34,021 nucleotides of DNA from Candidatus Hydrogenedentota bacterium. Lineage in GTDB: Bacteria > Hydrogenedentota > Hydrogenedentia > Hydrogenedentales > SLHB01. Where the stretch lies: contig JACRLJ010000128.1 in the NCBI GenBank assembly GCA_016215105.1, positions 1-34,021 on the forward strand. Direction: 5' to 3'. A program made the position numbers and the translations under genes. Below the pieces are notes generated by a model. The model was not told the origin of the DNA and ran no database searches. It worked only from the letters and a program-made list of their open reading frames with translations. The stretch's first letter is position 1. The number at the start of each line of letters is the position of its first letter. Positions 7,040 through 24,466 of this stretch are shown piece by piece.

Positions 7040-8285
7040 GGATCAGGGATGACTCGCCAGTAGAGAACGGGAGCTTAGTGCTCCCCAGTTTCAGGTCGGC
7101 AGTGCCGCCAATGCGCTAAAGGCAAGTTCCAGGGGGCATCTGGCGATCTGCAGGAAGTAATTGCCGATACGAGCCAGATAGATGACGCGTTCCTCTCGTG
7201 TGTTTGCCTTCATGAGCCGGGCGATGTCGAGGGTTTCGGCCGCGGCTCCGAAGGCGCATAGGAATACATAGGCCAGCGCCAGGATATAGAAGTGCCGGTC
7301 GTGTCGCTGAGGCTGGGATAGACGCACATGATCCATTCCAAGTCCCCAGTTGCGGTTCTTGGGGTCTCGGAACATGGCTTCGGTCCACATGCGACGCTTA
7401 TAGACGCGTACCACCTCTGCCGGGGGCTCAACGTCAAGATTGGTAACCAGATACCACGCTTCGTCGGCCTCGCGATCAAAGGTGGTCACCACTCGAATGG
7501 GGCCCATTGTTGCTCATCCATCGTACCCCAGCCCCAGTCCCTGGGTGTCCATCCGCGGCGTATCCCCAGTTCTTTGAGGCTACCCATGTGCTTTTCGACC
7601 GCGACCTGATGAATATGGGATAAACGCTGGACAAAGTACCATCCCCGGTTTGCGATATCGCTTAACCACCGCACGTTGCCGAAGCCCCGATCCGACACGA
7701 TAACCGGGGTAACTCCGACAGGGCACATCTCTGCGAGCATCTCCAGCGCTCGGTGCTCGCCGGCAATCATGGCGCCTTCCTGATCCCCCTGGTGTTCACT
7801 CTTGCGGATAGTCACACATAAGAAGGGAAGAGCGCGGCCATCGCGGGGCAGAGAAAACACCAACTGTTGAAACGGGGCCATATCCGTCCAATCCGCCAAA
7901 ACAATCGTGTGTCCAGTCGTTGGCCGAAAGAACGAAAACAACGCTGCGCTTATGGCTGAGGTCTCAAATTGGTCATTGCGCAACAACCGCCAAACTCGCT
8001 TGATACAGTGTTTGGCTGCGACTGCGCCAGCCATAGCACGTCCTAACGCCAGAACGCCAACCCCCCTCATCTGAAGCGCCGCGCTCACCACATCGGCCAA
8101 GGTTTTGCGCCGCGACTGCCGCATGGACTGGACATGCGTTTCCAACCACGTCAAAATGTTGCTCGGGTCGTACATGGATTTCTCCTCCTTGGATGGCTGC
8201 TAGTGGCAACTTCAGCCTATTTTAGACGAGAACCGCCGTCTACGACCCACTGCTATACAGACTTAGGGAGACTGGGGATCACTGA
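7040..8285 (-). mobile_element. IS4-family insertion sequence (boundaries approximate)
   Basis: Contains the transposase ORFs 7091-8175. Possible imperfect terminal repeats near ~7069-7084 (tgctccccagtttcag) and ~8268-8283 (reverse complement tgatccccagtctccc). Exact ends not resolved by eye. Confidence 0.55.
7091..8175 (-). pseudogene. IS4-family DDE transposase, interrupted by a frameshift (ORFs 7486-8175 and 7091-7507)
   Basis: N-terminal ORF carries D (LADWTD) and D (VSDRGFGN). C-terminal ORF carries YKRRMWTEAMFRDPK, an exact Y-(2)-R-(3)-E-(6)-K IS4 signature. The two frames overlap at 7486-7507 around a GGGGCCCC run. Confidence 0.7.
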
Positions 8286-8579: not shown

Positions 8580-9464
8580 ATGGAACCCAACTGGCGAATA
8601 ATCGAACAAGAGAATCGGGGGTTATCGATTCAGTCCGCCTGTGCTCTCGGAGAAGGGTGGAACTCTCGCGCTTACCTGGTAAACAACGCGCTGGTCTTCA
8701 GGTTCCCTAAACGGCCCGATCAATGGGGGGAACTTCGGCGCGAGATCGACTTTCTGGATTTTGCGGCAGATTTGCTTCCGCTAAGCGTCCCTCGGTATGT
8801 CGGGGTGAATCCGGAATCGCTTGCCGCAGCATGTGGCTACGCTATGTACCGGTACTTGGCCGGGGATTTGTTGGATCTTCGTGTTATGTCGCAGACTGAG
8901 CGCGGTAAGGCGTCTGATTGTATTGCTACGTTCTTACGGGCCTTACACAGATTGGAACCGAGTCCTGAAATTGGGGACGCTTTACCGAGGGAAGATGCGC
9001 GAAAGGTCGCAGAGTACTACCTGGAGCGTACCGAACGCGAGATCGCGCCAAAGCTGCAAATGCGGGACGCTAAGGCCTTGGTCGCGCAATTTGAGGCGTA
9101 TCTCAGCAGATCCGAAAACTTTCTGTTCCGGCCCGTGGTTCTCCACGCCGATCTCGGCCGAACGCATCTCTTGATGGAAGACAGCGCAGTCGTTGCAGTT
9201 CTTGATTTTGGCGACATCAACTGGGGTGACCCCGACTACGATTTCGTCTATCTGTTCAATGATTTTGGTCCCGTGTTCGTCGAGGCAGTGGCGCTCAGCT
9301 ATGGGCATCCCGACCTTGAAAGCCTTCGAAGCAAGCTCCGGTACTATGCAGTAGTGGACCAAGTGGACACTATTCTGCACGGTGGCGGTCGTGCCCTTGA
9401 TGGCCAAGAAACGGAGGCGTGGCGTCGTCTCAGACAGTTCGTCCGGCGAAAGAATTGCGAGTAA
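8580..9464 (+). CDS. Aminoglycoside phosphotransferase, APH(2'')-like (phosphotransferase enzyme family)
   Basis: 294 aa. N-terminal GEGWNSRAYLVNNALVFRFPK parallels APH(2'')-Ia [21 protein letters not shown]. Catalytic region VLHADLGRTHLLMEDSAVVAVLDFGDINWGDPDYDFVYLFND parallels [41 protein letters not shown] (Brenner motif HxDxxxxN and the DFG-like IDFGD). GC is lower than the surrounding genome. Confidence 0.75.
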   Translation: MEPNWRIIEQENRGLSIQSACALGEGWNSRAYLVNNALVFRFPKRPDQWGELRREIDFLDFAADLLPLSVPRYVGVNPESLAAACGYAMYRYLAGDLLDLRVMSQTERGKASDCIATFLRALHRLEPSPEIGDALPREDARKVAEYYLERTEREIAPKLQMRDAKALVAQFEAYLSRSENFLFRPVVLHADLGRTHLLMEDSAVVAVLDFGDINWGDPDYDFVYLFNDFGPVFVEAVALSYGHPDLESLRSKLRYYAVVDQVDTILHGGGRALDGQETEAWRRLRQFVRRKNCE

Positions 9465-9549: not shown

Positions 9550-10425
9550 ATGCTACATATTCTCGCGCTTCTTCTTCCGTGTATCGCGCTATCTGCTCAT
9601 CCCTGGAATGCGCCGTATGCTCGTATCGATTACGGCTTCTATTTCCTCAACTATCTCGATCAACTTTACGGCTTCCCTCTGTGTATCTGCTTTCTCACGC
9701 TCACGGCCTATCGATCCCGAAGGGACCTTCGCTATTGGGCCATAGGACTACCACTGCTGCCAATCGCCGTCGTCACCTTTCCCTTACGTATAGCGCTACC
9801 AGGCGTCGTTTCCGGTCTGATGGGCATTGGCGAAGATGAGCTACAGCGGTTGCTCGTTATATATGCCATGAGCGAAGTGTTTGTATTCCTGACCTTAGAC
9901 CGCCTCGCCAATTTCAGGCCGCTTCAATCTGGAATTCTGCTGGTACTCGTCATGCTCATCGCCGGTCTAGTTGGATTGATCGGATATCAATATCCGCTTT
10001 ACGGCGCCGCTGAACACTTGACGTTCGTCTTGGTAACGACGGCCGCGGTCTATTGTGCGGGGCTAAGTTGCTCGTACCCCTTTCGTTTCCGAAGATTTGC
10101 CGTTTGGCTCTTCTTTTGGGATGTTCTCGTGATGTTGGTTGCCTGGCCCCTGGTGTGGCTGGTTCTTATGCTTCTGGTGTTTCGTGAATCAGATACCGAC
10201 ATCGCGGCTTATCTGCCACTGCACCTGCTAATTGGTTTGGTTGATGGTGTCGGCCTGTTCTTCATCTTGCACGCGCCATTCCTTGTCTTGGTTCGGTACA
10301 GCAGGCTCTATGGCGAGCGTTTTCGTAAATTACTCCGAAGGGACGACAAGGGCGATAGCGAGAATAAGACGCTACTGCTCCAGACACAGGACGGGGCGGA
10401 CCAAGGTGGACGACAAGTCCAATGA
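9550..10425 (+). CDS. Hypothetical polytopic integral membrane protein
   Basis: 291 aa with GGGAGG RBS 6 nt upstream of ATG and about 8 hydrophobic helices. No recognisable family. Lies in the same lower-GC segment as the APH(2'')-like gene. Confidence 0.6.
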   Translation: MLHILALLLPCIALSAHPWNAPYARIDYGFYFLNYLDQLYGFPLCICFLTLTAYRSRRDLRYWAIGLPLLPIAVVTFPLRIALPGVVSGLMGIGEDELQRLLVIYAMSEVFVFLTLDRLANFRPLQSGILLVLVMLIAGLVGLIGYQYPLYGAAEHLTFVLVTTAAVYCAGLSCSYPFRFRRFAVWLFFWDVLVMLVAWPLVWLVLMLLVFRESDTDIAAYLPLHLLIGLVDGVGLFFILHAPFLVLVRYSRLYGERFRKLLRRDDKGDSENKTLLLQTQDGADQGGRQVQ

Positions 10426-10669
10426 AACTTCAATACCGTGATCTCGACGCGCGTCCTGAGAAACATGCAGGAATCCAATAGTGCGATCGCGAACTATGCA
10501 CGCCATGCACAAAACCGCGCACAACCGACCCATTTGGGCATAAGCCAGAGACCTGCGATTCTTCGCACGTCCCTGATCGTGTTAAGAGTGGCGGGGCACG
10601 ATTTGAACCCGCGACCTTTGGGTTATGACCGAAATAGGGGGATCGCTAGCCCAGTGAAATCATTGTAGT

Positions 10670-13600
10670 CTACCCGGCGCCCGCCGCCGCGCCTGGGGCG
10701 CCGCGGGTGTCCAGCAGCACGAGATTCGGCAGAGCGGTCCTCAGCCGAGATGCCGCTCCGGCGGTCAGCGGGGTCTTGGATTTCACCCACACGTGGCGCA
10801 GTGATTTGAGGTTCTCCAGTTGACGGAGGCCCGCGTCGGTGAAATTGCCTTCAACCCTCAATCGGTCCAAAGACGGACTGGCGGCCAAGTATGCCAGCCC
10901 CCGATCCGTTACCAAGTCCCCACCGATCGTCAATAAATCGAGATGCTTTAGACTGGCGAGGTGCGCCATACCCGGATCGCCGAACGAGCTCCCGCCAGTA
11001 GATTGCAGGCCACGCAGATTCGGCGCGCTGGCTACCCATGCAAGATCTTCGTCGCGCAACGCCGGGACACGTTTTCCCTGCGGTCCCGATTGGACTATGA
11101 AGACCACATTATCGAGTTTTGTCAAGCCAGAGAGGTCGAGCGCCGCATCGTCTCGAATGAGGGTGTCCATACTTAGGCGGCGCAGATTCGTTAGCCGGTT
11201 GAGATAGTTTGCGCCGGTAACGGTCAAGCCACCAGTGTTGTACCCTCCAATTTCAAGCCACTCAAGTGAGGTGATGGACGCAAGGGAGCGCATTCCCTGG
11301 TTCGTCATATTGCACGCACACAGATTTAGCGTCTTCAAGTTCCGCAGCTTGGTAAGTTTCTCGATGCCTGCGTCCGTGAAACCCGCGTCCGATCCGATCA
11401 CCAACGTTTCGAGATTTGGAAGCGTGGATACGGATTCGAGACCCGCGTCCGTAAATGGTCCCGGCTCCGTCCGCGATCCGGTGATTGCCCCGCCGCCGCA
11501 CCAAAGTGTCTTCAGATTCTTCAGTTGAGCTATGGCCGCCAAACCGCGGTCGGAGTTTTGCATTGGCAAACGCAGGTTCTCGAGTGAGGTCAGCGCCGCG
11601 AGCTGCGCTATACCGTTGTCGGTGACGTTCTTAAAGTGGTGCACTGAAAGGGTCTTTAGTTTAGATAACGGCTTAAGGTAGGCGACCCCGGCGTCCGTGA
11701 TAGAATCAACCCACACAAAGTTGAGTTCCTCGATATTAGGTAACTGGCCGATATACTGCATACCGGCGTCGGTGACGCCAAGCTTTGCGCCAAACAGGGT
11801 CAATATCTTGAGTGATTTGATCTTCTTGAGCTGCGCCAACCCAGAGTCGCCGAGCCCGACACCCTCCAGCACGAGAAACTCAAGTTTGGGCAGGTCGGCA
11901 AGCTTGGCGAGCCCTGAGTCCCCGAGACGGTTGCACATCACGGACAACTCGCGAAGATTGGACAGCGAGGCCAACTGGCTCAGCCCTTGGCCGGTTGGCA
12001 GGCCATCGAAGACCAGGGATTGCAGCGAATGCAGGCGCGCGATGTGCGAGAGCGATGCGTCGCCCAGAGCATCCGTTTTCAGGAAGAGGACTTCAAGATT
12101 CTCCAGCCGCGAGAGGTGACGGATTCCCTTATCCGAAAGGCCCGGCCCGCGGTGAAACAGGGCGTACACTACGAGTTCTTTGAGGCCCGTCAGCCCCGAC
12201 AGATGTGGTAGTACGGCCTCATCCACATCCAATTTGGCGTTTTCGGGTATTTCCAGGACCAGGGCGTACAGGTCGTCCGGGCGGAGCCGATCGAGCGGCG
12301 ACAAGTCCTGGAGCGCGCTGTGGCCGACCTCCAGTTTCACGGGCAGGCCTTCAGGAACGCTTACCGCGCCGCGAGCATCGGCAAGAAAGTGCCAGGCTAG
12401 CGTCCAGGGAGGCGTCGGAGAATTGTGGAAGGTGTTATCCCCTGCTCCGTCCGGTAAGGATTCCGGAAGCCTCACGAAGAGAGTTCCAAGTGAACGATCG
12501 GACGGAAACATGATGGTGCGGGCCTTCGACCTCGCTACAGGCGCGGGGACCGGCGTCTCCGTGGATGTGACCTTCGCCTCGCGAGCGGGAGGCTGGTTCT
12601 GGGGCGCGGTGTCCTGGGCCTGGGCGATGGCCGCGCCGTGGGGCGTGAATGAGAAGCCTGGCACACACAGTAACCCGAGTCCCAGCAAGAGGGCCAAGGC
12701 GCCGGTCGAAAGCTTCGGTCTGGGTTCCAAGGCGGAGGCAATGCTGGCCACGCGCACTTTGAGGTCGCTGAACGACTCCGAGGCAATCGCCGCGAACGCG
12801 GTGGTGTCGTTCTTTGTGCCGCATAATTCCGCCGCGGCCACGAGCGCTCTTGCGTATACGCTGGGCCGCTCGTTGCTAGCGGCTAGAACTAACGAGTCGC
12901 AGGCTTGTTCACGTTCAAGTAAGACGCGTCGCCGCACGAAATGCACTACGGGGTGAAAGAAGTAGGTTGTCTCGCAGATGGCGAGCAGCATGCCCAGGCT
13001 AGAATCTCCCCGGCGCACATGAGTGAATTCGTGGGCCAGCACGGCCAGGAGACTTCCCTGCGTGGCCGTGGCAACCAGATGCGCCGGCATGACCACGGCG
13101 GGCCGACGGGTCCCCAATGCAAATGGCGAGACACGTTCATTCGTGATGACCAGTCGAGGCAGGCGCCGCAAACCGACCATATCGGCGGCTTGGCGCGCGA
13201 GGGCCAGCAGCGGACCGTCCGTGACCGGCGTCCCACGCGCGATGATGCGTCGCGCGCGGCGCCACGCGCGCGTCAGGCGCAGCGCCCAGAATGCCATGCC
13301 CGCAAACCAAGCGAGCATAAGAATAGCCGCCGCGTTCACTCCGCGCGGCGGGGCAAAGTCGTCTACCTTCGACGGCGTGGCCGGCGCCGATGCTATTGGG
13401 GTGGCGGCTTCCGACGCGACAGAATACGCAGCAAACTCATCGGAACCGCCGAAGGCGTGCTGGGACACAAAGCTTGCCGTTTGGAGCGCTGGGGGCGCCG
13501 CGGTCTCGGGCGCGCCAGGAGCTGGCAACACGGGAACTGGAATGGTCAGGATGGGCATAACGAGCAGCCTCAGGGGCACGAGCATCCACAGCCACAAGCG

Positions 13601-13741
13601 AAAGTTGGGCGTGGTTTTTCGCAGTCTAGTCGAGAGGAGCAGAAGAACCAGAGTGAGGGCCGTGCTCTGCCACACCGCCGCCCACATTCCCGCGGCCCAT
13701 CGGGTCGCAAAGTCATTCAGAGCCGCTGTTTCCCAAATCAT
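10670..13741 (-). CDS. BlaR1/MecR1-type M56 metalloprotease signal transducer fused to a large C-terminal leucine-rich-repeat (LRR) domain
   Basis: Start at ATG 13741 (AGGAGG RBS 8 nt upstream; MIWETAALNDF...). N-terminal ~320 aa has TM helices and the M56 zinc motif LAVLAHEFTHVRRGDS (cf. HELAHIRRRD). A Pro/Ala-rich linker follows. The last ~600 aa are ~20 tandem ~24-residue LRRs (L..L..L..L.L....ItD.Gl..L). Confidence 0.8.
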   Translation of the reverse strand: MIWETAALNDFATRWAAGMWAAVWQSTALTLVLLLLSTRLRKTTPNFRLWLWMLVPLRLLVMPILTIPVPVLPAPGAPETAAPPALQTASFVSQHAFGGSDEFAAYSVASEAATPIASAPATPSKVDDFAPPRGVNAAAILMLAWFAGMAFWALRLTRAWRRARRIIARGTPVTDGPLLALARQAADMVGLRRLPRLVITNERVSPFALGTRRPAVVMPAHLVATATQGSLLAVLAHEFTHVRRGDSSLGMLLAICETTYFFHPVVHFVRRRVLLEREQACDSLVLAASNERPSVYARALVAAAELCGTKNDTTAFAAIASESFSDLKVRVASIASALEPRPKLSTGALALLLGLGLLCVPGFSFTPHGAAIAQAQDTAPQNQPPAREAKVTSTETPVPAPVARSKARTIMFPSDRSLGTLFVRLPESLPDGAGDNTFHNSPTPPWTLAWHFLADARGAVSVPEGLPVKLEVGHSALQDLSPLDRLRPDDLYALVLEIPENAKLDVDEAVLPHLSGLTGLKELVVYALFHRGPGLSDKGIRHLSRLENLEVLFLKTDALGDASLSHIARLHSLQSLVFDGLPTGQGLSQLASLSNLRELSVMCNRLGDSGLAKLADLPKLEFLVLEGVGLGDSGLAQLKKIKSLKILTLFGAKLGVTDAGMQYIGQLPNIEELNFVWVDSITDAGVAYLKPLSKLKTLSVHHFKNVTDNGIAQLAALTSLENLRLPMQNSDRGLAAIAQLKNLKTLWCGGGAITGSRTEPGPFTDAGLESVSTLPNLETLVIGSDAGFTDAGIEKLTKLRNLKTLNLCACNMTNQGMRSLASITSLEWLEIGGYNTGGLTVTGANYLNRLTNLRRLSMDTLIRDDAALDLSGLTKLDNVVFIVQSGPQGKRVPALRDEDLAWVASAPNLRGLQSTGGSSFGDPGMAHLASLKHLDLLTIGGDLVTDRGLAYLAASPSLDRLRVEGNFTDAGLRQLENLKSLRHVWVKSKTPLTAGAASRLRTALPNLVLLDTRGAPGAAAGAG

Positions 13742-14135
13742 GGCCTTTACCCTCCTCTTGGCGCTCCAGGTTCCGTACCAGGTCGCGCAATTGGCGCGCC
13801 TGCTCATCGGTCAACGCTTTGGTGTTCGCCAGATACGCCAGAAACGGGGCCGGCGACCCGTCGAGCACCGTTTCCACGAAATCGCGGATCAGTCCCTTCA
13901 AGACCTTGCCACGTGTTTGTGTGGGCCAGAAACGATAGACCCCTTTGACCTTGCGGCGCTTGAGACAGTCTTTCACGTGCAGACGCTGCATGACCGTGAG
14001 CACCGTCGTACGCGCCAGGCCGCGTCGTTCAGCGAATTCCTCGGCCACTTCCTGGACCGTGCGCCCGGGCGCTTCCCAGACGGCCTTGAGCACTTCGAGT
14101 TCCAGTTCACCCAATCCCTGCGGTTTCGCCGCCAT
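13713..14135 (-). CDS. BlaI/MecI/CopY-family winged-helix transcriptional repressor
   Basis: 140 aa: LGELELEVLKAVWEAPGRTVQEVAEEF...ARTTVLTVMQRLHVKDCLKRRKVKGVYRFWP...ALTDEQARQLRDLV matches the penicillinase-repressor family. GAGGAG RBS is upstream. Its 3' end overlaps the BlaR1-like gene start, suggesting translational coupling. Confidence 0.85.
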   Translation of the reverse strand: MAAKPQGLGELELEVLKAVWEAPGRTVQEVAEEFAERRGLARTTVLTVMQRLHVKDCLKRRKVKGVYRFWPTQTRGKVLKGLIRDFVETVLDGSPAPFLAYLANTKALTDEQARQLRDLVRNLERQEEGKGHDLGNSGSE

Positions 14136-14171
14136 AGCCTAGGTCTCCTCAAATGCGCGGGGTGTTTTTCA

Positions 14172-14243
14172 GACTACTTCAGTAGTCACTGTTCAAATAT
14201 ACTACGAGCGTAGTCATTTGTCAAGTGGTCTTGAGCGTAGTCC
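14172..14243. promoter_or_regulatory. Candidate BlaI-type operator dyads (GACTAC-N4-GTAGTC; ACTACG-AG-CGTAGT; a third half-site GAGCGTAGTC)
   Basis: Perfect palindromes gactacttcagtagtc (14172-14187) and actacgagcgtagt (14201-14214) sit 37-100 bp upstream of the blaI-like start. BlaI/CopY-family repressors bind TAC-containing dyads of this type. Confidence 0.4.
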
Positions 14244-14495
14244 CGTGCGGGCGGTACTGAGACGTGGTATTAGAGACCTACAGATCGGAGGGGTATCCCG
14301 CGCCTCATTGCGGATTCGAGTTGCTCGTTGGCAAGGCCGCGTCGTCGCGGGTGAATGCGTACAAGGCCGCGCGCAGTCGCCCTGTTGGGTATGAAAGAAA
14401 GGACCTGCGATTTCTCGCAAGTCCCAGATAGTGTCAATGGTAGCGGGGGCAGGATTTGAATCTGCGGCCTCGTGGATTTCAGCGACGACAACAAC

Positions 14496-15875
14496 CTACA
14501 GCCTGATGTCTTTGAGTTTCCAACCCTTGCGGAAGGCCGGTTTGATGAACTCGTTGGCTTTCTCGTTGTTGGTGAAACGCAGGTTCTTGGCGTCCCACAG
14601 GAGTTCCTCGTTCGGGAACCGCCAACTGAGGGCGCCCAGCAGAACCCATTCCGTGTACGGACCCGCGATGCCGAAGGGCGAACACGTCTCGCCATCGCCT
14701 TTGCACGCCCGGATCCAGTTTTCGAAATGTCCCGGCGATCGCTTCAAAACCAGCGCAGGCAGGACATAATCCTTCATCTTGGCTCTCGGAAGCAGGGTCA
14801 CAGACTCGCCACGGCCTCCCGTTCCCATATACCCCTTCGTGCCTACAAATATCTCGTTGATGTCCTTCAGATCAGCTCCCGCGATTTCCGCAGGCGGCGT
14901 ATATTTTGCCGCCATGTTCCCTTCATACCAGTGGACCGTGACCGGCCCCATCCGGCCCCCGGGAACATACGGATTTGGACGGTCTGCGAATTTCATCTTG
15001 CACGCATAGTGCGGATAGGTGACCGGATTAACCCCCTCGACCGTGATGCACTGCACGCTCACTGGGCTGCCGAGTTGCAGACCCCAATTCGCCGGTCCGA
15101 GCATATGGATACCCCAATCGCCGATCATCTGGGAACCGTACTCCAGAAACCCGCGCCAGTTCGACGGATGAATCTTTGAACTGAAAGGATGCTGCGCTAC
15201 ACGGCCGGACCATAGATCCCAATCCAACGTAGAGGGCACGGGCTCGGCTGCGGGCCATGCGGTTATGTCGCGCGCAAAGCCGCCGCCGCACGTCGTGTGG
15301 ACCTCTGTAATGTCCCCGAGGGCGCCGCTCCACATGATCTCGCACGCCACCCGCGTGGCTTCCGAAGAGTACCCTTGGTTGCCCATTTGCGTCACCACGT
15401 TGTATTTCTTCGCGGCCTTCGTCAAGAGACGCGCTTCCCACACGCTCTGCGTGAGGGGTTTCTGGCAGTACACGTTCACCCCCAGTTTCATGGCGCGCAG
15501 CGCGACCGAGGCATGCATGTGGTCGGGTATGGTGATCGTGATCCCATCGAGATTCTTGTGCTCTTTGTCGAGCATCTTGCGAAAATCCCGGTACAACTTG
15601 GCCTTGGGAAACGCCTCCGCCGCCTTACGCAAGAACGCCTCGTCCACGTCGCAAAGGGCATAGATGTTCTCGCCACGCACGCTGCGGACATCGTTTAGTC
15701 CCTGCATTCCGCCCACACCGACGCAACCGATGTTCATCTTGTCGCTCGGCGCCTTCCGGCCCGAGGCCGCCACAACATGGCGCGGCACAATGGAAAAAGC
15801 CGCCGCTGCCACCGTTGAAGCCAGGAATTCCCGCCGTGTAAACCCTTTGTTGCGCATGAATCTGCTCCTGTACAT
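14496..15875 (-). CDS. Gfo/Idh/MocA-family NAD(P)-dependent oxidoreductase with Tat signal peptide
   Basis: Twin-arginine motif TRREFLASTVAAAAF. Rossmann motif NIGCVGVGGMQG and the typical Gfo/Idh/MocA core (ALCDVD..., DGITITIPDHMHA, YCQKPL). An alternative start at 15857 (MRNKGF...) has a better RBS. Confidence 0.85.
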   Translation of the reverse strand: MYRSRFMRNKGFTRREFLASTVAAAAFSIVPRHVVAASGRKAPSDKMNIGCVGVGGMQGLNDVRSVRGENIYALCDVDEAFLRKAAEAFPKAKLYRDFRKMLDKEHKNLDGITITIPDHMHASVALRAMKLGVNVYCQKPLTQSVWEARLLTKAAKKYNVVTQMGNQGYSSEATRVACEIMWSGALGDITEVHTTCGGGFARDITAWPAAEPVPSTLDWDLWSGRVAQHPFSSKIHPSNWRGFLEYGSQMIGDWGIHMLGPANWGLQLGSPVSVQCITVEGVNPVTYPHYACKMKFADRPNPYVPGGRMGPVTVHWYEGNMAAKYTPPAEIAGADLKDINEIFVGTKGYMGTGGRGESVTLLPRAKMKDYVLPALVLKRSPGHFENWIRACKGDGETCSPFGIAGPYTEWVLLGALSWRFPNEELLWDAKNLRFTNNEKANEFIKPAFRKGWKLKDIRL

Positions 15876-16238
15876 TTGGCCTCATGCCCGATTCGGCGCG
15901 ATTGTCGATCGCTTCGGGCTGAATGCGGCGCCTTCTCCTATCGTTACATCCCCCGAAAGTGTAGAACCGCTCAACTCCACGATTGCACGAGCGTCATGGT
16001 ATCAGTTTCGCCGCCCAGTTGAAACCTCCAAGTGTGACCGCCCAGGTAACTCCATTCGCCGATTGCACCCGCGGAATCTCAGCCTGTTCTTCAGCGAACG
16101 GTCAATCGCGTCGGAACGCATTTCACCTTGAAAGGCCCCAGATCCACAACGGTGAGTACGACATTTACCACGGCCACTTGATCGGGAAGAAGTTCGATTG
16201 TCCTGCAACGCGCCAACTGCCGAGTTTAGGATGAATCG

Positions 16239-17105
16239 TTGCGGTCCAGCCCATACCCCGTTATAATCGTTCCACCCAACGAAAAGAGACGAATCTTGAA
16301 GCCGAGCGATGTTCCCCTGGCAGCGATCTGCGCCGATATTGAGCGATCGTGCTCACTTTCTATTCGTAATGTCGAACATATTTCCCTGACCGCTCGCAGC
16401 GCGGTTTATCTTGCGGAAACGCCCAATGAACGAATGGTCCTGAAGCTATCCGCAAATTCCTCGCCGACTCTCACGTCAGCCCAGGAATTTCAGGCGCTTC
16501 AGGCAGTGCGTATCCAAGGGCAGGTTCGCGCTCCAGTTGCCGTGGCGCACGGTAAACACCTCGGAGTCAGTTGGCTTCTTCAGGAATTTCTTGGAGGAGA
16601 ATCGCTTTCAAGCTTCTTCATAAGCGAGACTCAGTGCGCGGATGATCACCTTGAAGACATTTTCCAAGCGGGGCAGCTTCTAGCCAAGCTTCACGCAGAC
16701 GCCAAGACCGGCCACTCTGCGCAACGTTCACTCGATCACGCGTTGGAAGTGGCTGCGTACAATCTCGAGAATTCCCTCTATGACCCGGACGAATTCTTGG
16801 GTATCGCGCCACCCGGCGAGATCTATGAGTATCTACGCACGCAGCGTCCAGATTCTCTGCGGGAATGTCTGCTCCATGGGGACTTTCGTCCAAAGAATAT
16901 CCTCGTACAGAAGAACGGTCAACTTGCCCTGATTGACTGGGAACACAGTTTCCCTGGCGATCCCTATTATGACCTCGCTGTCTTTGCTTACTACTGTAGT
17001 CAGGACAGCGTCTTGACCAGATTTCTCGACGGCTATCGGTTGACCGCTATTGATCGCGAGAGACTTCGCTATTTCGATCTGCTCAGTAAGCTTCTGAATG
17101 TCTAG
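16239..17105 (+). CDS. Phosphotransferase enzyme family protein (APH/choline-kinase-like fold)
   Basis: Catalytic motifs LLHGDFRPKNILVQKNGQLALIDWEHSFPGDPYYDLAVF (HGDxxxxN plus IDW/D). Start codon uncertain (TTG at 16239 or a downstream alternative). Lower GC than neighbouring genes. Confidence 0.7.
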   Translation: MRSSPYPVIIVPPNEKRRILKPSDVPLAAICADIERSCSLSIRNVEHISLTARSAVYLAETPNERMVLKLSANSSPTLTSAQEFQALQAVRIQGQVRAPVAVAHGKHLGVSWLLQEFLGGESLSSFFISETQCADDHLEDIFQAGQLLAKLHADAKTGHSAQRSLDHALEVAAYNLENSLYDPDEFLGIAPPGEIYEYLRTQRPDSLRECLLHGDFRPKNILVQKNGQLALIDWEHSFPGDPYYDLAVFAYYCSQDSVLTRFLDGYRLTAIDRERLRYFDLLSKLLNV

Positions 17106-21784: not shown

Positions 21785-24013
21785 TTAGTTTGGCGGCGTC
21801 CACCACGCCATCGAATCCGACCCGTTGCCGGTCTGGAACTTGCCCGTGACCGTCAACGAATCCAGATCAATGACGTGGACGCCGTCCGTCTCTTCACACC
21901 CTGCGAACGCGTGCTTGCCGTCGGGAGACAACTCGAGTCCAATGGCCCTGCTCCCCACCGGCAAACATTTGATCTCCGTCAGTGTCGCAACATCTAGAAC
22001 GACGACTTCACCCTTCTCCGTCCAACTGGACACCAGCGCTCGCCGGCCATCGAGCGTGAAGCGTATCCGGACAGGTTTTCCAGGACACGGAATCGTCTTG
22101 ACGGGGGTATGCGTCGCCAGATCGATGATCGTGATGCTGTCGCCTTCCTGATTGAGAGCCCACAACTGCTTCCGATCGGGCGTGAAGGCCATTCCTTCGC
22201 ACCCCTTCCCGCAAGGGATCTGCGTGATCAGCGCGCCCGATTCCCGGTCGATCACGGAGACGTTCTGCGTGTCGATGTTTGCGGTGTACAGCCGCTTGTT
22301 GTCGTGCGAGACCAGGACCATGTGCGAAATCTTGCCGTGGGTAGGTATACCGCGCGTGACCTTGTTGGTCTGAGTGTCGATTTCCACGACAAAGCCCGTC
22401 TGGCCCGCCGTAAAGTAGGCGTGTTTTCCATCGGGCGCCATCGCGGCTCCGTGGATACGCGAGTACTCGCCCGTGGAAATCTGCGCGACGTGTTTGCGCT
22501 CCACCAGATCGATCACCGACACCGTATTTCCCGGCGGCGCGTAGTTCGAGAGATAGGCAAAGCGGCTGTCCTTTGAAAGCACGATTTCATGGGGGTTCGG
22601 CCCGGTGGGAATCTTCGCGATCGGCTCCAGGGTCCGGGGGTTGACGAAAGAGATGGTGTCCTCGTGCTTGTTTAAAACTAGCAGAACGTCCTGATCGGGC
22701 GGAAGCTTGCGTGGATCGCCGAGTTCGTTCAGCAACTCAAATGGCGGCTCTTTGCCGCCTTCGCGCGTAGTAAAGAAATTGTAGACCATGAGACCATCGG
22801 CGCCATCCTCCCAGAGCCACCGCGCGATCCGGCGATAGGTGTCTTTTGAAGGCTCGACTTCAATGGAGGCGTAGATCGGCAGGCCGGCGGGAAACACGCG
22901 GCGGTACTCGCGAACGGGTAAGGGAAAGTCGTTCCGGAGGTAGTGCGACACGGTCACGAAATCCACGATCCCCTCCTTCGCCCAGGCGATGGGATCGATA
23001 CCGATGGCCCGATTCTGTTCCGGCAGGGCCATGATGCGGACGGACAACCGCACGGGACGCCCGCGTTCTTGACCTATCTCCCGCGTCATGCGCCGCACAT
23101 CGCGCATCCAGCCGGTCATGACCGCTACGTTTTCCGATTCCTTGCCGGGCGAAAAGTACATGGGAAACCGCTGGAAGTCCAGGTCGAGGCCGTCGATCGG
23201 ATAGCGCTCGCAACACTCGCGCAGCTCCGCGAGCCGCTGCTGCCGCACTTCGGGAACGGCGTAGTTGAGACCGCCAGGCAGCCAACTCCCCACGACCGGG
23301 TGCGTCCGGGGACCGAGGATTTGGACGTACACACTGGACAACGCATCGCCCGGTTTTCCGATGCGCCAATCGGGATGCTCCTTCCAGAATCGCGACAACA
23401 GTATGCTGTCGGATTCGTCAACCGCGTGGACTTCGTTCAGCCGAAACGTGAGGAAGGTTTCCAGGCCCTTTTCTTTCGCGCGGGCTACGATAAGACCTAG
23501 AGGGTCATGGCCGGCGTCAACCAATGCCCTCAGATTCACTGCCGTCCGTTCAAGAGAGCCCGGCTTCGTTGCTGCCGGGTCCTTGATAGTCTCGGCTACG
23601 GCTGGACTCAGGCGCGCGCCCAACATTTCCGACGCCTTCCCGGGAAAGTTGACGTTCATTCCGACGTTGGGGCTGATGAAAAGCGACGTGGCGCCAGCCC
23701 TTCCAATCTCGTCGACGTAACCCAGGACGTCGGCGGGCTGCATCGGGTACGCTTTGTATAGGAACATGTTGTCGCCATCGCTATTGTAGATGAGACGGCG
23801 GCGCGCGTCGCTCCCGCCGGTGTGTTTCTCGTCTACAGGACCAGTGTCTGCTTGTGCGACCATGATTTCCGCTCCTACGGACGAATTCTGAATGCGGCCT
23901 CTCTCGCTGCCCCAGCGAGTGTTGTCAATGCCGAACTGGTGAGAATCATCTGGACAAGGAACGATCAGAACGCCAAACGCGACTGCGGCCACGATCCCCA
24001 ACACACTTGACAT
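21785..24013 (-). CDS. Secreted two-domain protein: glycoside-hydrolase-like TIM-barrel region plus C-terminal YVTN-type beta-propeller repeats
   Basis: Start ATG 24013 (GGGAGG RBS), signal peptide MSSVLGIVAAVAFGVLIV. Central YPIDGLDLDFQRF resembles the DGxDxDxE strand of GH18/GH-like barrels, with Q in place of E. The C-terminal ~350 aa contains at least 6 repeats of the ~40-aa YVTN beta-propeller pattern (e.g. LYTANIDTQNVSVIDRESG, LWALNQEGDSITIIDLATH). Confidence 0.6.
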   Translation of the reverse strand: MSSVLGIVAAVAFGVLIVPCPDDSHQFGIDNTRWGSERGRIQNSSVGAEIMVAQADTGPVDEKHTGGSDARRRLIYNSDGDNMFLYKAYPMQPADVLGYVDEIGRAGATSLFISPNVGMNVNFPGKASEMLGARLSPAVAETIKDPAATKPGSLERTAVNLRALVDAGHDPLGLIVARAKEKGLETFLTFRLNEVHAVDESDSILLSRFWKEHPDWRIGKPGDALSSVYVQILGPRTHPVVGSWLPGGLNYAVPEVRQQRLAELRECCERYPIDGLDLDFQRFPMYFSPGKESENVAVMTGWMRDVRRMTREIGQERGRPVRLSVRIMALPEQNRAIGIDPIAWAKEGIVDFVTVSHYLRNDFPLPVREYRRVFPAGLPIYASIEVEPSKDTYRRIARWLWEDGADGLMVYNFFTTREGGKEPPFELLNELGDPRKLPPDQDVLLVLNKHEDTISFVNPRTLEPIAKIPTGPNPHEIVLSKDSRFAYLSNYAPPGNTVSVIDLVERKHVAQISTGEYSRIHGAAMAPDGKHAYFTAGQTGFVVEIDTQTNKVTRGIPTHGKISHMVLVSHDNKRLYTANIDTQNVSVIDRESGALITQIPCGKGCEGMAFTPDRKQLWALNQEGDSITIIDLATHTPVKTIPCPGKPVRIRFTLDGRRALVSSWTEKGEVVVLDVATLTEIKCLPVGSRAIGLELSPDGKHAFAGCEETDGVHVIDLDSLTVTGKFQTGNGSDSMAWWTPPN

Positions 24014-24466
24014 GTATGAACCTCCCGCGTGCCCGAGCGACAAAGACCTTCCAGCAAAACCCCGTGCAACAGAGTGACCTCGTAGCGCCGGCGTCCTCGC
24101 CGGCTCGGTACTGACGCTCTGAAGCCGCCGGGACGGCGGCGCTACGTTGATTGAGCGACGGTTCTTTAGAAGTTCAAAGTCACTGTATGGAAGCCTCAGA
24201 CACAAATCAAACCGGTGAATAGCCCTGTGGTCCCCAGTTCTGCAATCGTTACTTGCGAAGCGGGTTGCGATGGTCACAGTTCTTCGGCTAGGAATCCGGC
24301 CAGAAAGCCGGCTTCTTGACCGCGCCTCCGGGCAGGCTGTACGAGAGGATGGCACTCAGTGGGAGAGTTTATACGGATGCGCTTTGCTCAGGAATACCGT
24401 CGTCTTCGCGGTCGTTTCCCTAATCAAAGCATAGGAGGGTGTCCTGTGTCGCGACGACTGCGCCCC

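What the first reader, a model, noticed from the sequence alone, without database searches (positions are those of the whole stretch)
10670..14243. BlaI-type repressor paired with a BlaR1-like M56 protease whose sensor is a ~600-aa leucine-rich-repeat domain, with candidate operator dyads upstream
- In classical BlaR1/MecR1 the extracytoplasmic sensor is a penicillin-binding (class D beta-lactamase-like) domain. Acylation of that domain triggers the M56 zinc protease to inactivate BlaI.
- Here the M56 module is intact (HEFTHVRRGD), but the sensor is replaced by ~20 tandem LRRs. LRRs are a protein/ligand-binding scaffold.
- This suggests a regulated-proteolysis switch responding to a macromolecular ligand rather than to beta-lactams.
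- The repressor gene overlaps the sensor gene start, suggesting translational coupling.
- 37-100 bp upstream there are TAC-type dyads: GACTAC-N4-GTAGTC, ACTACGAGCGTAGT and GAGCGTAGTC.
- A Tat-secreted Gfo/Idh/MocA oxidoreductase sits immediately upstream on the same strand and may be part of the regulon.
- Planctomycete genomes carry many BlaI/BlaR1-like pairs with divergent sensors. Their signals and targets are essentially uncharacterised.
Basis: partly seen in the sequence, partly recalled or inferred. Interest (0 to 1): 0.65.

Follow-up and report, generated by a model that had tools for sequence, protein, structure and literature searches.

The report
BlaI/BlaR1-type switch with LRR sensor
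A two-gene operon in an uncultured Hydrogenedentota bacterium pairs a BlaI-like repressor with a BlaR1-like membrane protease whose beta-lactam sensor is replaced by a periplasmic leucine-rich-repeat domain; the family is common in environmental bacteria but has never been studied, and its signal and target genes are unknown.

Summary
A 140-aa Penicillinase_R repressor gene (13713-14135, minus strand) overlaps by 29 nt a 1023-aa gene (10670-13741, minus strand).

**The M56 protein**
- It has four transmembrane helices and an M56 zinc protease module.
- That module aligns with S. aureus BlaR1, with matches for HEXXH, D210, E242xxxD246, Y261, R294 and the S283|F284 autocleavage site.
- A roughly 40-aa linker follows, then a roughly 85-aa cap and about 20 LRRs, predicted to be periplasmic.

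**The promoter**
- A near-consensus promoter (TTGACA-17-TATATT) carries two GACTAC-N4-GTAGT(C/A) dyads.
- One dyad lies in the spacer and -10 element; the other lies at about +2 to +17.
- This layout is conserved in 9 homologous loci whose flanking sequence is not conserved.

**How it most likely works**
- It is probably an autoregulated, BlaIR-type regulated-proteolysis switch.
- The ligand and the regulon are unknown.

- The host is labelled Hydrogenedentota, not Planctomycetes.
- The upstream Gfo/Idh/MocA gene is a separate transcription unit with no operator.

**Wider picture**
- At least 81 distinct M56-LRR proteins were found.
- The same cap+LRR module also occurs alone, on ECF sigma-factor fusions and on thioredoxin-like proteins.
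- I rate it a new variant of a known kind, of moderate interest.

The parts
13713..14135 (-). blaI-like repressor gene (140 aa; winged-helix BlaI/MecI/CopY family)
   Evidence: Pfam Penicillinase_R 86.9 bits, E 1.6e-24. PDB matches to Rv1846c 2g9w, BlaI 1sd4 and MecI 1okr over about 120 residues. It has a single Cys and therefore no CxC metal motif (read from the sequence). It carries a 10-aa C-terminal tail that is absent from 8 relatives of 129-130 aa.
10670..13741 (-). M56-LRR sensor/protease gene (1023 aa plus stop); the true start is the ATG at 13741, giving a 29-nt overlap with blaI
   Evidence: Pfam Peptidase_M56 118.8 bits and LRR_14 77.6 bits. The N-terminus aligns with 14 homologues and M1 is invariant. 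An identical protein exists in NCBI, labelled 'M48 family metalloprotease [Candidatus Hydrogenedentes bacterium]'.
12644..13741 (-). Transducer module, residues 1-366: TM1 about 16-38, TM2 about 46-66, variable Pro/Ala-rich outer loop 67-136, TM3 about 137-158, cytoplasmic M56 gluzincin domain, TM4 about 346-366
   Evidence: Hydropathy. K+R versus D+E in the flanks: +3/0 after TM1, +5/0 after TM3, 0/1 after TM2 and 0/1 after TM4. AlphaFold2 helices. The family profile matches BlaR1 8exp residues 88-319 at E 5.5e-13.
13004..13033 (-). HEFTHVRRGD: zinc-binding H237, E238 and H241, plus D246
   Evidence: Aligns with BlaR1 H201, E202, H205 and D210. Invariant in 15 homologues.
12896..12910 (-). 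E278-Q-A-C-D282 (ExxxD, third zinc ligand)
   Evidence: Aligns with BlaR1 E242...D246. Invariant in the family. The role of these residues is taken from PMC9834060.
12770..12775 (-). S323-F324, candidate autocleavage bond (R330 follows downstream)
   Evidence: Aligns exactly with BlaR1 S283|F284, and R330 aligns with R294. F324 and R330 are invariant; E322 and S323 are at least 90% conserved. The BlaR1 cleavage site is taken from PMC9834060.
12527..12643 (-). Low-complexity Pro/Thr/Ala linker (residues 367-405)
   Evidence: pLDDT below 50. It is the least conserved region, with mean majority frequency 0.21.
12272..12526 (-). N-terminal cap of the sensor (residues 406-490), beginning R-T-I-M-F-P-S-D-R-S-L-G
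   Evidence: F412 and G419 are invariant. It is mainly beta-strand, with pLDDT about 86-89 outside one loop. The same motif heads free LRR proteins and sigma-LRR fusions.
10709..12271 (-). About 20 leucine-rich repeats (residues 491-1011), of the L..L..L.L....iTD.Gl..L type, resembling cysteine-containing and ribonuclease-inhibitor-like LRRs
   Evidence: Several Pfam LRR families match. The AlphaFold2 solenoid is mostly at pLDDT above 85. Foldseek hits: FBXL2 6o60 at E 6e-13, COI1, TIR1, Roco LRR and ribonuclease inhibitor.
14196..14224 (-). Sigma-70-type promoter: TTGACA (14219-14224), 17-nt spacer, TATATT (14196-14201)
   Evidence: Matches 11 of 12 consensus positions, the best in 10300-16300. 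The TTGAC is invariant in 9 homologous loci.
14200..14215 (-). Operator O1, GACTAC-GCTC-GTAGTA, lying in the spacer and overlapping the -10 element
   Evidence: The half-sites TGACTAC and GT(A/G)GTA are invariant in 9 loci.
14172..14187 (-). Operator O2, GACTAC-TGAA-GTAGTC, at about +2 to +17, 28 bp centre to centre from O1
   Evidence: Perfect 6+6 dyad. TGAC(T/G)AC-N4-GTAGTC is invariant in 9 loci.
14233..14242 (-). Extra half-site GACTACGCTC upstream of the -35 element; a 10-nt direct repeat of the left half of O1
   Evidence: Read from the sequence. Not conserved in relatives. Its function is doubtful.
14400..14425 (-). Terminator-like hairpin that separates the upstream Gfo/Idh/MocA gene from the blaI promoter (a boundary, not part of the operon)
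   Evidence: 11-pair stem with 6 G-C pairs, followed by TTCTTTCATA.

Best explanation
This is an autoregulated two-gene operon encoding a BlaI/BlaR1-family regulated-proteolysis switch. Its extracytoplasmic input domain is a cap+LRR solenoid instead of a penicillin-binding domain.

**Proposed mechanism**
1. The BlaI-like dimer binds two GACTAC-N4-GTAGTC-type operators. One lies in the spacer and -10 element and one at the transcription start of a strong sigma-70-type promoter. Binding shuts off blaI and the translationally coupled M56-LRR gene.
2. The M56-LRR protein sits in the inner membrane with four helices. Its zinc protease faces the cytoplasm. The roughly 610-aa cap+LRR domain hangs in the periplasm on a flexible linker of about 40 aa.
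3. A periplasmic ligand binds the LRR domain. The ligand is most likely a protein, a peptide or an envelope polymer. Binding is transmitted through the membrane as in BlaR1: the autocleavage loop (S323|F324) leaves the active site and the protease cuts the repressor in its dimerisation region (the GSPAPFLAY|LAD block).
4. The repressor then falls off the DNA and the operon is derepressed, together with still unknown targets elsewhere in the genome.

**Shown here**
- Gene pair and gene overlap.
- Domain composition.
- Conservation of all BlaR1 catalytic and autocleavage residues.
- Promoter and operator layout, and its conservation across 9 loci.

**Inferred, not shown**
- Topology, which rests on hydropathy, charge bias and homology.
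- DNA binding by the repressor.
- Ligand-dependent activation of the protease.
- Cleavage of the repressor.
- Identity of the ligand and of the regulon.
For: **Family membership and gene pairing**
- Pfam and NCBIfam assignments.
- All 8 relatives examined have a 129-130-aa blaI gene. It abuts the M56-LRR gene in 6 loci, is 91 nt away in L003, and is separated from it by one free cap+LRR gene in L005.

**Protease module**
- The M56 module profile matches solved BlaR1 (8exp) at E 5.5e-13.
- Residue equivalences (window residue = BlaR1 residue): H237/E238/H241 = H201/E202/H205; D246 = D210; E278..D282 = E242..D246; Y296 = Y261; S323|F324 = S283|F284; R330 = R294.
- The roles of these residues are taken from PMC9834060.

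**Topology**
- Four hydrophobic helices with positive-inside bias.

**Promoter and operators**
- The promoter matches 11 of 12 consensus positions.
- The only invariant blocks across 9 loci are the -35 element, both O1 half-sites and both O2 half-sites.
- The TAC-N4-GTA core has the same half-site spacing as the TACANNTGTA operator of BlaI, MecI and CopY. Two operators are typical of that family (PMC7253601).
- A scan of genome contigs with the -35+O1 pattern found the same design in Sedimentisphaerales, Pirellulales, Anaerohalosphaeraceae and Hydrogenedentota. In 9 hits it sits directly upstream of a blaI homologue.

**Sensor role of the LRR module**
- The closest M56 modules (40-43% identity) carry other periplasmic domains: AhpC/redoxin or CarboxypepD_reg.
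- The same cap+LRR module is also attached through a transmembrane helix to ECF sigma factors (P0144, P0165).
Against: - No experiment exists for any member of this family.
- The window shows no output gene. The operon ends after the sensor gene, and no other operator occurs in 34 kb.
- The BlaI scissile pair N101|F102 is Y|L here, although P1' Phe is almost invariant in classical BlaI. Cleavage at this position is therefore not assured.
- The outer loop, which carries the signal in BlaR1, is variable and predicted to be disordered here.
- The LRR domain could be a tether or a partner-binding scaffold rather than a ligand sensor.
- Exposed positions on the putative concave face are less conserved than the rest (0.40 against 0.53). 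This came from a crude repeat register and argues against one common ligand across the family.
- That Hydrogenedentota have a diderm envelope is assumed, not tested.
Confidence: 0.68

Rival explanations
1. The system is an envelope-stress or partner-switch device rather than a receptor for an external ligand. The periplasmic LRR domain binds an endogenous periplasmic protein, such as a free cap+LRR paralogue or the secreted proteins encoded in the same operon in relatives. The protease is released when that partner is titrated away or damaged.
For: - In 2 of 8 related loci, free signal-anchored cap+LRR proteins with 38-42% identity to the sensor lie in the operon.
- In 4 of 8 related loci, a secreted family without any Pfam match follows the sensor gene.
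- A periplasmic location limits access for external macromolecules.
- The cap+LRR module is also fused to thioredoxin-like/AhpC domains that act on periplasmic proteins.
Against: - The window's own operon has none of these partner genes.
- There is no interaction data.
- The idea differs from the main explanation only in the nature of the input.
Confidence: 0.2
2. The LRR domain is not an input domain. The protein is a membrane protease that turns over the repressor constitutively or in response to a cytoplasmic or membrane cue, as proposed for the BlaR-like proteins that lack a sensor domain (Mycobacterium BlaR, PvmS, CenR). In this view the LRR part only anchors or localises the protein.
For: Characterised non-beta-lactam BlaIR systems work without a folded outer sensor.
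Against: - A domain of about 610 aa, folded with high confidence, is kept at full length in at least 81 M56 fusions.
- It is swapped with other periplasmic domains on near-identical transducers.
- It is reused on ECF sigma-factor fusions. That pattern is typical of input modules.
Confidence: 0.08
3. The system is still a beta-lactam or cell-wall-antibiotic resistance regulator, like classical BlaR1/MecR1.
For: Homology of both proteins to BlaI and BlaR1. JGI annotates relatives as 'beta-lactamase regulating signal transducer'.
Against: - There is no penicillin-binding or transpeptidase domain.
- NCBIfam blaR1_generic scores 75 bits against a cut-off of 400, and only model positions 10-305 of 585 are matched.
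- No beta-lactamase or PBP family hit appears among the large ORFs of the window or in the 8 related loci.
Confidence: 0.03

Closest known systems
BlaR1/BlaI and MecR1/MecI of Staphylococcus aureus and Bacillus licheniformis (structures 8EXP-8EXT; PMC9834060)
   Same: - A repressor gene next to a sensor-protease gene.
- A transducer with four transmembrane helices and a cytoplasmic M56 gluzincin domain.
- Conserved HEXXH, D210, E242xxxD246, Y261 and R294 equivalents, and the S|F autocleavage bond.
- A winged-helix repressor of about 125-140 aa.
- Two dyad operators with a TAC-N4-GTA core at the promoter.
- Autoregulation.
   Different: - The outer domain is a cap plus about 20 LRRs, roughly 610 aa, instead of a class-D-beta-lactamase-like penicillin-binding domain of about 250 aa.
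- No beta-lactamase or PBP2a target gene is linked.
- The repressor has Y|L where BlaI has N101|F102.
- The operator conserves GACTAC/GTAGTC rather than TACA/TGTA.
- Gene order is blaI then sensor, with the two genes overlapping.
- The host is an uncultured Hydrogenedentota bacterium.
Non-beta-lactam BlaIR-family systems: PetR/PetP (Synechocystis), CenIR (C. difficile, bioRxiv 10.64898/2026.04.08.717257), PvmSR (P. aeruginosa, bioRxiv 10.64898/2026.08.03.742534), and BlaI/BlaR of M. tuberculosis and M. abscessus
   Same: A BlaI-type repressor paired with an M56 membrane protease that does not sense beta-lactams. The signal is unknown or unrelated to beta-lactams.
   Different: According to the two preprints read, CenR, PvmS and the Mycobacterium BlaR proteins lack a folded outer sensor domain. 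The PetR/PetP paper was only listed in a search and not read. Here a large, folded outer domain is present.
CopY/CopR copper repressors
   Same: Same repressor fold family (TIGR02698, 33 bits). Two operators with a TACANNTGTA-type core.
   Different: There is no C-terminal CxC metal site, since the protein has a single Cys. The repressor is paired with a protease and not with copper ATPase genes.
Eukaryotic LRR ectodomain receptors (Toll-like receptors, plant LRR receptor kinases) and F-box LRR hormone receptors (TIR1, COI1)
   Same: An LRR solenoid serves as the ligand-binding input of a signalling protein. TIR1, COI1 and FBXL2 are the best structural matches for the repeat type.
   Different: The resemblance is by analogy only. 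The output here is a zinc protease that would destroy a repressor, the compartment is bacterial and periplasmic, and there is no evidence of common descent for the receptor architecture.
M56 proteins with other C-terminal domains (TonB_C fusions of Bacteroides, PMC10350073; AhpC/redoxin and CarboxypepD_reg fusions found here)
   Same: The same transducer clade, at 40-43% identity over the transmembrane and protease module for the fusions found here.
   Different: The outer module differs, and none of them has been characterised as a sensor.

Membership tests
MEROPS/Pfam Peptidase_M56 (BlaR1-type membrane gluzincins) | Profile match above the curated cut-off | tested here: met
   PF05569 scores 118.8 bits against a cut-off of 31, covering profile positions 5-296 of 296.
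MEROPS/Pfam Peptidase_M56 (BlaR1-type membrane gluzincins) | HEXXH, Asp five residues after the second His, and the ExxxD third ligand, located between TM3 and TM4 | tested here: met
   H237-E-F-T-H241, D246 and E278xxxD282 are invariant in 15 homologues and align with BlaR1 H201/E202/H205/D210/E242/D246.
MEROPS/Pfam Peptidase_M56 (BlaR1-type membrane gluzincins) | Zinc-dependent proteolytic activity | not testable with these tools
   Needs biochemistry.
BlaR1/MecR1 beta-lactam sensor-transducers (NCBIfam NF000326 equivalog) | C-terminal penicillin-binding (class-D-beta-lactamase-like, SxxK) sensor domain | tested here: not met
   Only model positions 10-305 of 585 are matched, at 75.3 bits against a cut-off of 400. 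No transpeptidase or beta-lactamase Pfam hit was found. The C-terminal 610 aa are a cap plus LRRs.
BlaR1/MecR1 beta-lactam sensor-transducers (NCBIfam NF000326 equivalog) | Autocleavage loop with a Ser|Phe bond, and the Arg294 equivalent that completes the active site | tested here: met
   S323|F324 and R330 align with S283|F284 and R294 of 8exp. This is sequence evidence only; cleavage itself was not tested.
BlaR1/MecR1 beta-lactam sensor-transducers (NCBIfam NF000326 equivalog) | Four transmembrane helices, protease in the cytoplasm, C-terminal domain outside | tested here: met
   Hydropathy, charge bias and the AlphaFold2 helices agree with the BlaR1 topology. This is a prediction only.
BlaR1/MecR1 beta-lactam sensor-transducers (NCBIfam NF000326 equivalog) | Linked, co-regulated beta-lactamase or PBP2a gene | tested here: not met
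   None was found among the large ORFs of the 34-kb window or in 8 related loci. The rest of the genome was not available.
BlaI/MecI/CopY winged-helix repressors (Pfam PF03965) | Profile match above the cut-off, with full-length alignment to solved members | tested here: met
   86.9 bits against a cut-off of 22.6. Matches 2g9w, 1sd4 and 1okr over about 115-120 residues.
BlaI/MecI/CopY winged-helix repressors (Pfam PF03965) | Dyad operators with a TAC-N4-GTA core at its own promoter, usually two | tested here: met
   O1 lies at 14200-14215 and O2 at 14172-14187. Both are conserved in 9 loci. The reference motif comes from PMC7253601. Binding itself was not tested.
BlaI/MecI/CopY winged-helix repressors (Pfam PF03965) | BlaI-type scissile bond Asn101|Phe102 in the dimerisation helix | tested here: not met
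   The aligned residues are Y101|L102, inside a conserved GSPAPFLAYLAD block.
BlaI/MecI/CopY winged-helix repressors (Pfam PF03965) | CopY-type C-terminal CxC metal site | tested here: not met
   The protein has a single Cys (C57) and no CxC motif (sequence). TIGR02698 scores 33 bits against a cut-off of 122.
Leucine-rich repeat proteins | Tandem LxxLxLxx repeats forming a strand-helix solenoid | tested here: met
   LRR_14 scores 77.6 bits against a cut-off of 40, and four further LRR families pass their cut-offs. The AlphaFold2 solenoid is mostly at pLDDT above 85. Foldseek E values against LRR structures reach about 1e-12.

The most novel reading that the evidence does not exclude
The cap+LRR domain may be a true bacterial LRR ectodomain receptor module. 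In this reading it is a periplasmic ligand-binding solenoid that PVC-group and Hydrogenedentota bacteria plug onto different transmembrane transducers: the M56 repressor-cleaving protease, ECF sigma-factor fusions, and thioredoxin-like effectors. Free paralogues would act as co-receptors or decoys. That would make it a prokaryotic counterpart, by convergence, of Toll-like and plant LRR receptors. The window locus would then be a minimal, easily reconstituted example: promoter, repressor and receptor-protease within 3.6 kb.
Probability: 0.3. Interest if true: 0.75.

Novelty: new variant of a known kind. Interest (0 to 1): 0.55.

Why it matters
- BlaR1/BlaI is the textbook case of signalling by destruction of a repressor, but almost all that is known about it concerns beta-lactam sensing in Firmicutes.
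- This locus shows the same protease engine with every catalytic and autocleavage residue intact, and the same repressor-operator logic, wired to a completely different and very large input domain. It belongs to a family of at least 81 proteins from uncultured Hydrogenedentota and Planctomycetota.
- If the LRR domain is the input, two things follow. It gives a compact three-part system (promoter with two defined operators, repressor, receptor-protease) that could be reconstituted in a heterologous host to ask how an outer-domain event opens an M56 active site. It also adds LRR ectodomains to the list of bacterial transmembrane sensor modules.
- The conserved 16-bp operator gives a direct handle for finding the regulon once complete genomes are available.

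Tried and rejected
1. **Regulon search in the window.** There is no further GACTAC-N4-GTAGTC site. The only 2-mismatch hit (16986-17001) lies inside an APH-family gene and was treated as chance.
2. **Regulon search in related loci.** A degenerate dyad gave one hit per locus, which was O2 in each case. The exception was L004 9066-9081, which lies in the signal-peptide coding region of a downstream gene and has no promoter. It was rejected as chance.
3. **Scan of genome contigs with the -35+O1 pattern.**
   - There were 21 hits. All the Planctomycetota and Hydrogenedentota hits with readable downstream sequence lead into blaI homologues, so no new target class was found.
   - The pattern is biased towards autoregulated promoters.
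   - Eight hits on contigs labelled Clostridia or Lachnospiraceae have only O1 and no detectable blaI. They were not followed.
4. **Gfo/Idh/MocA as an operon or regulon member.** Rejected on three grounds: a terminator-like hairpin follows it, blaI has its own promoter, and the upstream neighbours are not conserved.
5. **Conservation of the concave LRR face.** My first repeat register was wrong. The corrected but still crude register gives 0.40 against 0.53 for other positions, which I treat as weak evidence only.
6. **Ser/Thr-kinase LRR proteins as a further transducer class.** P0164 has no obvious transmembrane segment or cap, and only 57% of the query aligns. P0042 matches 17% of the query. 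Neither was counted.
7. **The secreted companion family of relatives.** It has no Pfam match even at E 1, and no homologue is present in the window.
8. **Full-ORF start at 13807.** Rejected in favour of 13741 by alignment with homologues.

Full report
**What is in the sequence**

On the minus strand, a 140-aa ORF (13713-14135) is followed by a long ORF ending at 10670.
- The first ORF matches Pfam Penicillinase_R (86.9 bits, E 1.6e-24).
- The second matches Peptidase_M56 (118.8 bits) and several LRR families, including LRR_14 at 77.6 bits.
- The mechanical ORF starts at 13807. Alignment with 14 full-length homologues shows an invariant Met at the ATG at 13741 (MIWETAALNDF...). The protein is therefore 1023 aa and its gene overlaps blaI by 29 nt.
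- Both genes have GGAGG-type ribosome-binding sites.
- An identical protein is in NCBI as 'M48 family metalloprotease [Candidatus Hydrogenedentes bacterium]' on a 34,021-bp contig. The host is therefore labelled Hydrogenedentota, not Planctomycetes.

**The transducer module**

Hydropathy finds four membrane helices, at about 16-38, 46-66, 137-158 and 346-366.
- The segments after TM1 (RLRKTTP, +3/0) and after TM3 (AWRRARRIIARG, +5/0) are strongly basic. The segments after TM2 and TM4 are not.
- This gives the BlaR1 topology: N-terminus out, protease domain in the cytoplasm, C-terminal domain out.
- A profile of the first 375 residues of ten family members matches the solved S. aureus BlaR1 (8exp, residues 88-319) at E 5.5e-13.

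In that alignment the residues correspond as follows:

| Window protein | S. aureus BlaR1 |
|---|---|
| H237, E238, H241 | H201, E202, H205 |
| D246 | D210 |
| E278...D282 | E242...D246 |
| Y296 | Y261 |
| S323\|F324 | S283\|F284 (autocleavage bond) |
| R330 | R294 |

- The roles of these BlaR1 residues come from the cryo-EM study PMC9834060: zinc ligands, stabilising Asp and Tyr, cis autocleavage, and the domain-swapped Arg that completes the active site.
- All are invariant or nearly invariant in the 15-member family alignment.
- NCBIfam's BlaR1 equivalog model matches only over its N-terminal half (positions 10-305 of 585; 75 bits against a cut-off of 400). This is a BlaR1-type transducer, not a BlaR1 orthologue.

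**The outer domain**

- After TM4 comes a Pro/Thr/Ala linker of about 40 aa (pLDDT below 50, least conserved region).
- Then comes a cap of about 85 aa that begins with R-T-I-M-F-P-S-D-R-S-L-G.
- About 20 repeats of 21-34 aa follow (residues 491-1011), with the pattern L..L..L.L....iTD.Gl..L.
- The AlphaFold2 model, built from a 15-sequence alignment, has mean pLDDT 76.9. Most of the repeat region is above 85, with a regular strand-helix solenoid.
- Foldseek against the PDB returns FBXL2, COI1, TIR1, the Chlorobium Roco LRR, internalins and ribonuclease inhibitor, at E values of 1e-13 to 1e-10.
- No penicillin-binding or beta-lactamase family matches.

**The promoter and operators**

- The 5' region of blaI holds the best sigma-70-type promoter in 10300-16300: TTGACA (14219-14224), a 17-nt spacer, and TATATT (14196-14201), matching 11 of 12 positions.
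- O1 is GACTACGCTCGTAGTA (14200-14215). It fills the spacer and overlaps the -10 element.
- O2 is GACTACTGAAGTAGTC (14172-14187). It lies at about +2 to +17, 28 bp centre to centre from O1.
- ACTAC-N4-GTAGT occurs nowhere else in the window. Expectation is 0.31, and 4 of 100 shuffles reached 2 matches. On that count alone the evidence is modest.
- The decisive evidence is comparative. In eight loci encoding homologues with 37-49% identity, and in one further Hydrogenedentota contig, the same layout recurs: TTGAC(A/G)-N3/4-TGACTAC-N4-GT(A/G)GTA-(-10)-N-TGAC(T/G)AC-N4-GTAGTC.
- In an alignment of the nine upstream regions, the invariant columns fall in the -35 element, the four half-sites and the -10 region, apart from one isolated upstream C.
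- The TAC-N4-GTA core has the half-site spacing of the TACANNTGTA operator of CopY, BlaI and MecI. Those repressors also typically use two operators (PMC7253601). Here the conserved bases are GACTAC/GTAGTC rather than TACA/TGTA.
It is not conserved in relatives.

**Context and relatives**

All eight related loci have a 129-130-aa blaI gene. It abuts the M56-LRR gene in six loci, lies 91 nt away in L003, and is separated from it by one free cap+LRR gene in L005. The window's repressor has lost the usual stop codon, which gives a 10-aa tail and the 29-nt overlap. Upstream neighbours differ in every locus.

The Gfo/Idh/MocA gene is not part of this unit:
- It lies at 14496-15875, has a TRREFL twin-arginine motif, and its best NCBIfam match is the BT_2158 glycoside 3-dehydrogenase family, below cut-off.
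- It lies upstream of the promoter and is followed by a terminator-like hairpin (14400-14425).
- It has no operator.

Downstream genes differ between the window and its relatives:
- In relatives the operon often continues with free, signal-anchored cap+LRR proteins (L003, L005; 38-42% identical to the window's sensor). It may also continue with a second M56-LRR gene (L007, L003/L004), or with members of a secreted 330-430-aa family that has no Pfam match (L001, L004, L008, L009).
- The window has none of these. A convergent 291-aa membrane ORF follows the sensor gene.
- The window therefore shows the regulatory pair but not its output.

**How common is it**

- A profile search of 1.84 billion 50%-identity representatives lists 150 best hits. 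Scored locally with separate M56 and sensor profiles, 66 of these carry both modules.
- A search with the sensor alone shows that the roughly 620-aa cap+LRR module occurs most often as a stand-alone protein of 620-690 aa.
- The module is also fused to AhpC/TSA-redoxin domains (for example P0082).
- It is fused through one membrane helix to ECF sigma-factor regions 2 and 4 (P0144, P0165).
- Conversely, the closest M56 modules (40-43% identity) carry AhpC/redoxin or CarboxypepD_reg domains instead of LRRs.
- The -35/O1/O2 promoter design precedes blaI homologues in Sedimentisphaerales, Pirellulales, Anaerohalosphaeraceae and Hydrogenedentota.
- The picture is a clade of BlaIR-type switches with exchangeable periplasmic modules. 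The LRR version is one populous branch.

**Mechanism**

The best-supported reading has four steps.
1. A repressor dimer sits on O1 and O2 and blocks RNA polymerase.
2. The co-translated M56-LRR protein monitors the periplasm through its LRR solenoid.
3. Ligand binding releases the autocleavage loop and lets the protease cut the repressor.
4. The operon, and presumably other operator-bearing genes, is then derepressed.

What is shown and what is inferred:
- Shown by sequence: the parts, their order, the catalytic and autocleavage residues, and the conserved operators.
- Inferred: topology, DNA binding, ligand-triggered activation and repressor cleavage.

Two points weaken the analogy with BlaR1.
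- BlaI's N101|F102 bond aligns with Y|L in a conserved GSPAPFLAYLAD block, although P1' Phe is nearly invariant in classical systems.
- The outer loop, which relays the signal in BlaR1, is variable and disordered here.

If the cell is diderm, which I assume, the LRR domain is periplasmic. The ligand is then more likely a periplasmic protein, a peptide or an envelope fragment than an external macromolecule.

**Comparison with the literature**

- Full-text searches found no paper on an M56-LRR protein.
- BlaIR-family systems that do not sense beta-lactams are known: PetR/PetP, CenIR, PvmSR and the Mycobacterium BlaI/BlaR pairs.
- According to the two preprints read, CenR, PvmS and the Mycobacterium BlaR proteins have no folded outer sensor.
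- The present family is therefore a new, uncharacterised variant of a known kind. It is already present in databases under generic names ('M56 family metallopeptidase', 'M48 family metalloprotease').

**Verdict**

- Interest is moderate (0.55). The architecture is not rare and the logic is familiar. However, a bacterial transmembrane receptor with an LRR ectodomain, with a fully conserved BlaR1 engine and a cleanly defined operator pair, is an attractive and testable system.

Noticed in passing
P0144, P0165 (proteins; not in the window): These are ECF sigma-factor (Sigma70_r2/r4) proteins fused through one membrane helix to the same cap (R.L.FP...S.G) plus LRR module. The module is therefore reused on a second class of transmembrane transcription regulators.
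   Followed up: partly
P0082, P0115, P0123, P0126, P0128; P0017, P0024: The cap+LRR module is fused to AhpC/TSA-redoxin domains. Sister M56 transducers are fused to the same thioredoxin-like domains. This hints at a link with periplasmic redox or protein-folding functions.
   Followed up: partly
L001 9079-10161; L004 9040-10104 and 10215-10778; L008 9214-10224 and 10288-11280; L009 7941-9218 and 9456-10754: A secreted protein family of 330-430 aa (one copy of 187 aa) without any Pfam match follows the M56-LRR gene in 4 of 8 related loci, often duplicated. It is absent from the window.
   Followed up: partly
L003 9213-11162 and 11159-13072; L005 3981-5960: Free, signal-anchored cap+LRR paralogues, 38-42% identical to the window's sensor domain, lie inside the blaI/M56-LRR operons. 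One genome has two M56-LRR genes about 4 kb apart (P0005, P0006).
   Followed up: partly
window 7486-8175 (-): A truncated IS4-family transposase ORF. NCBIfam NF033591 scores 85.9 bits against a cut-off of 152, matching model positions 3-159 of 340.
   Followed up: partly
window 8580-9464 (+) and 16239-17105 (+): Two APH-family phosphotransferase genes (Pfam APH, E 2e-30 and 9e-34) flank the locus. Their mutual relationship and their substrates were not examined.
   Followed up: no
window 14496-15875 (-): A Gfo/Idh/MocA oxidoreductase with a TRREFL twin-arginine motif. Its best NCBIfam match is the BT_2158 glycoside 3-dehydrogenase family, at 371 bits against a cut-off of 750. It is followed by a terminator-like hairpin at 14400-14425.
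   Followed up: partly
window 14233-14242 and 14206-14215 (-): A 10-nt direct repeat, GACTACGCTC. One copy lies upstream of the -35 element and the other is the left half plus spacer of O1. The upstream copy is absent from relatives.
   Followed up: yes
window 13713-13745 (-): The repressor is 140 aa, against 129-130 aa in eight relatives. The usual stop just before the M56 start codon is missing, which gives a 10-aa tail (GHDLGNSGSE) and a 29-nt gene overlap.
   Followed up: yes
L010, L012, L014, L016, L019, L021, L022, L027: The -35+O1 pattern also hits contigs labelled Lachnospiraceae, Clostridia or Eubacteriales. These have only one dyad and no blaI homologue detectable by tblastn downstream. 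They may be chance hits or may belong to a different BlaI/CopY clade.
   Followed up: no
window 21785-24355 (-) and 24439-26118 (+): Two large secreted-looking proteins: one combines a GHL10-like region with a beta-propeller, and the other combines a right-handed beta-helix with a dockerin domain. This is typical polysaccharide-degrading context and is unrelated to the finding.
   Followed up: no
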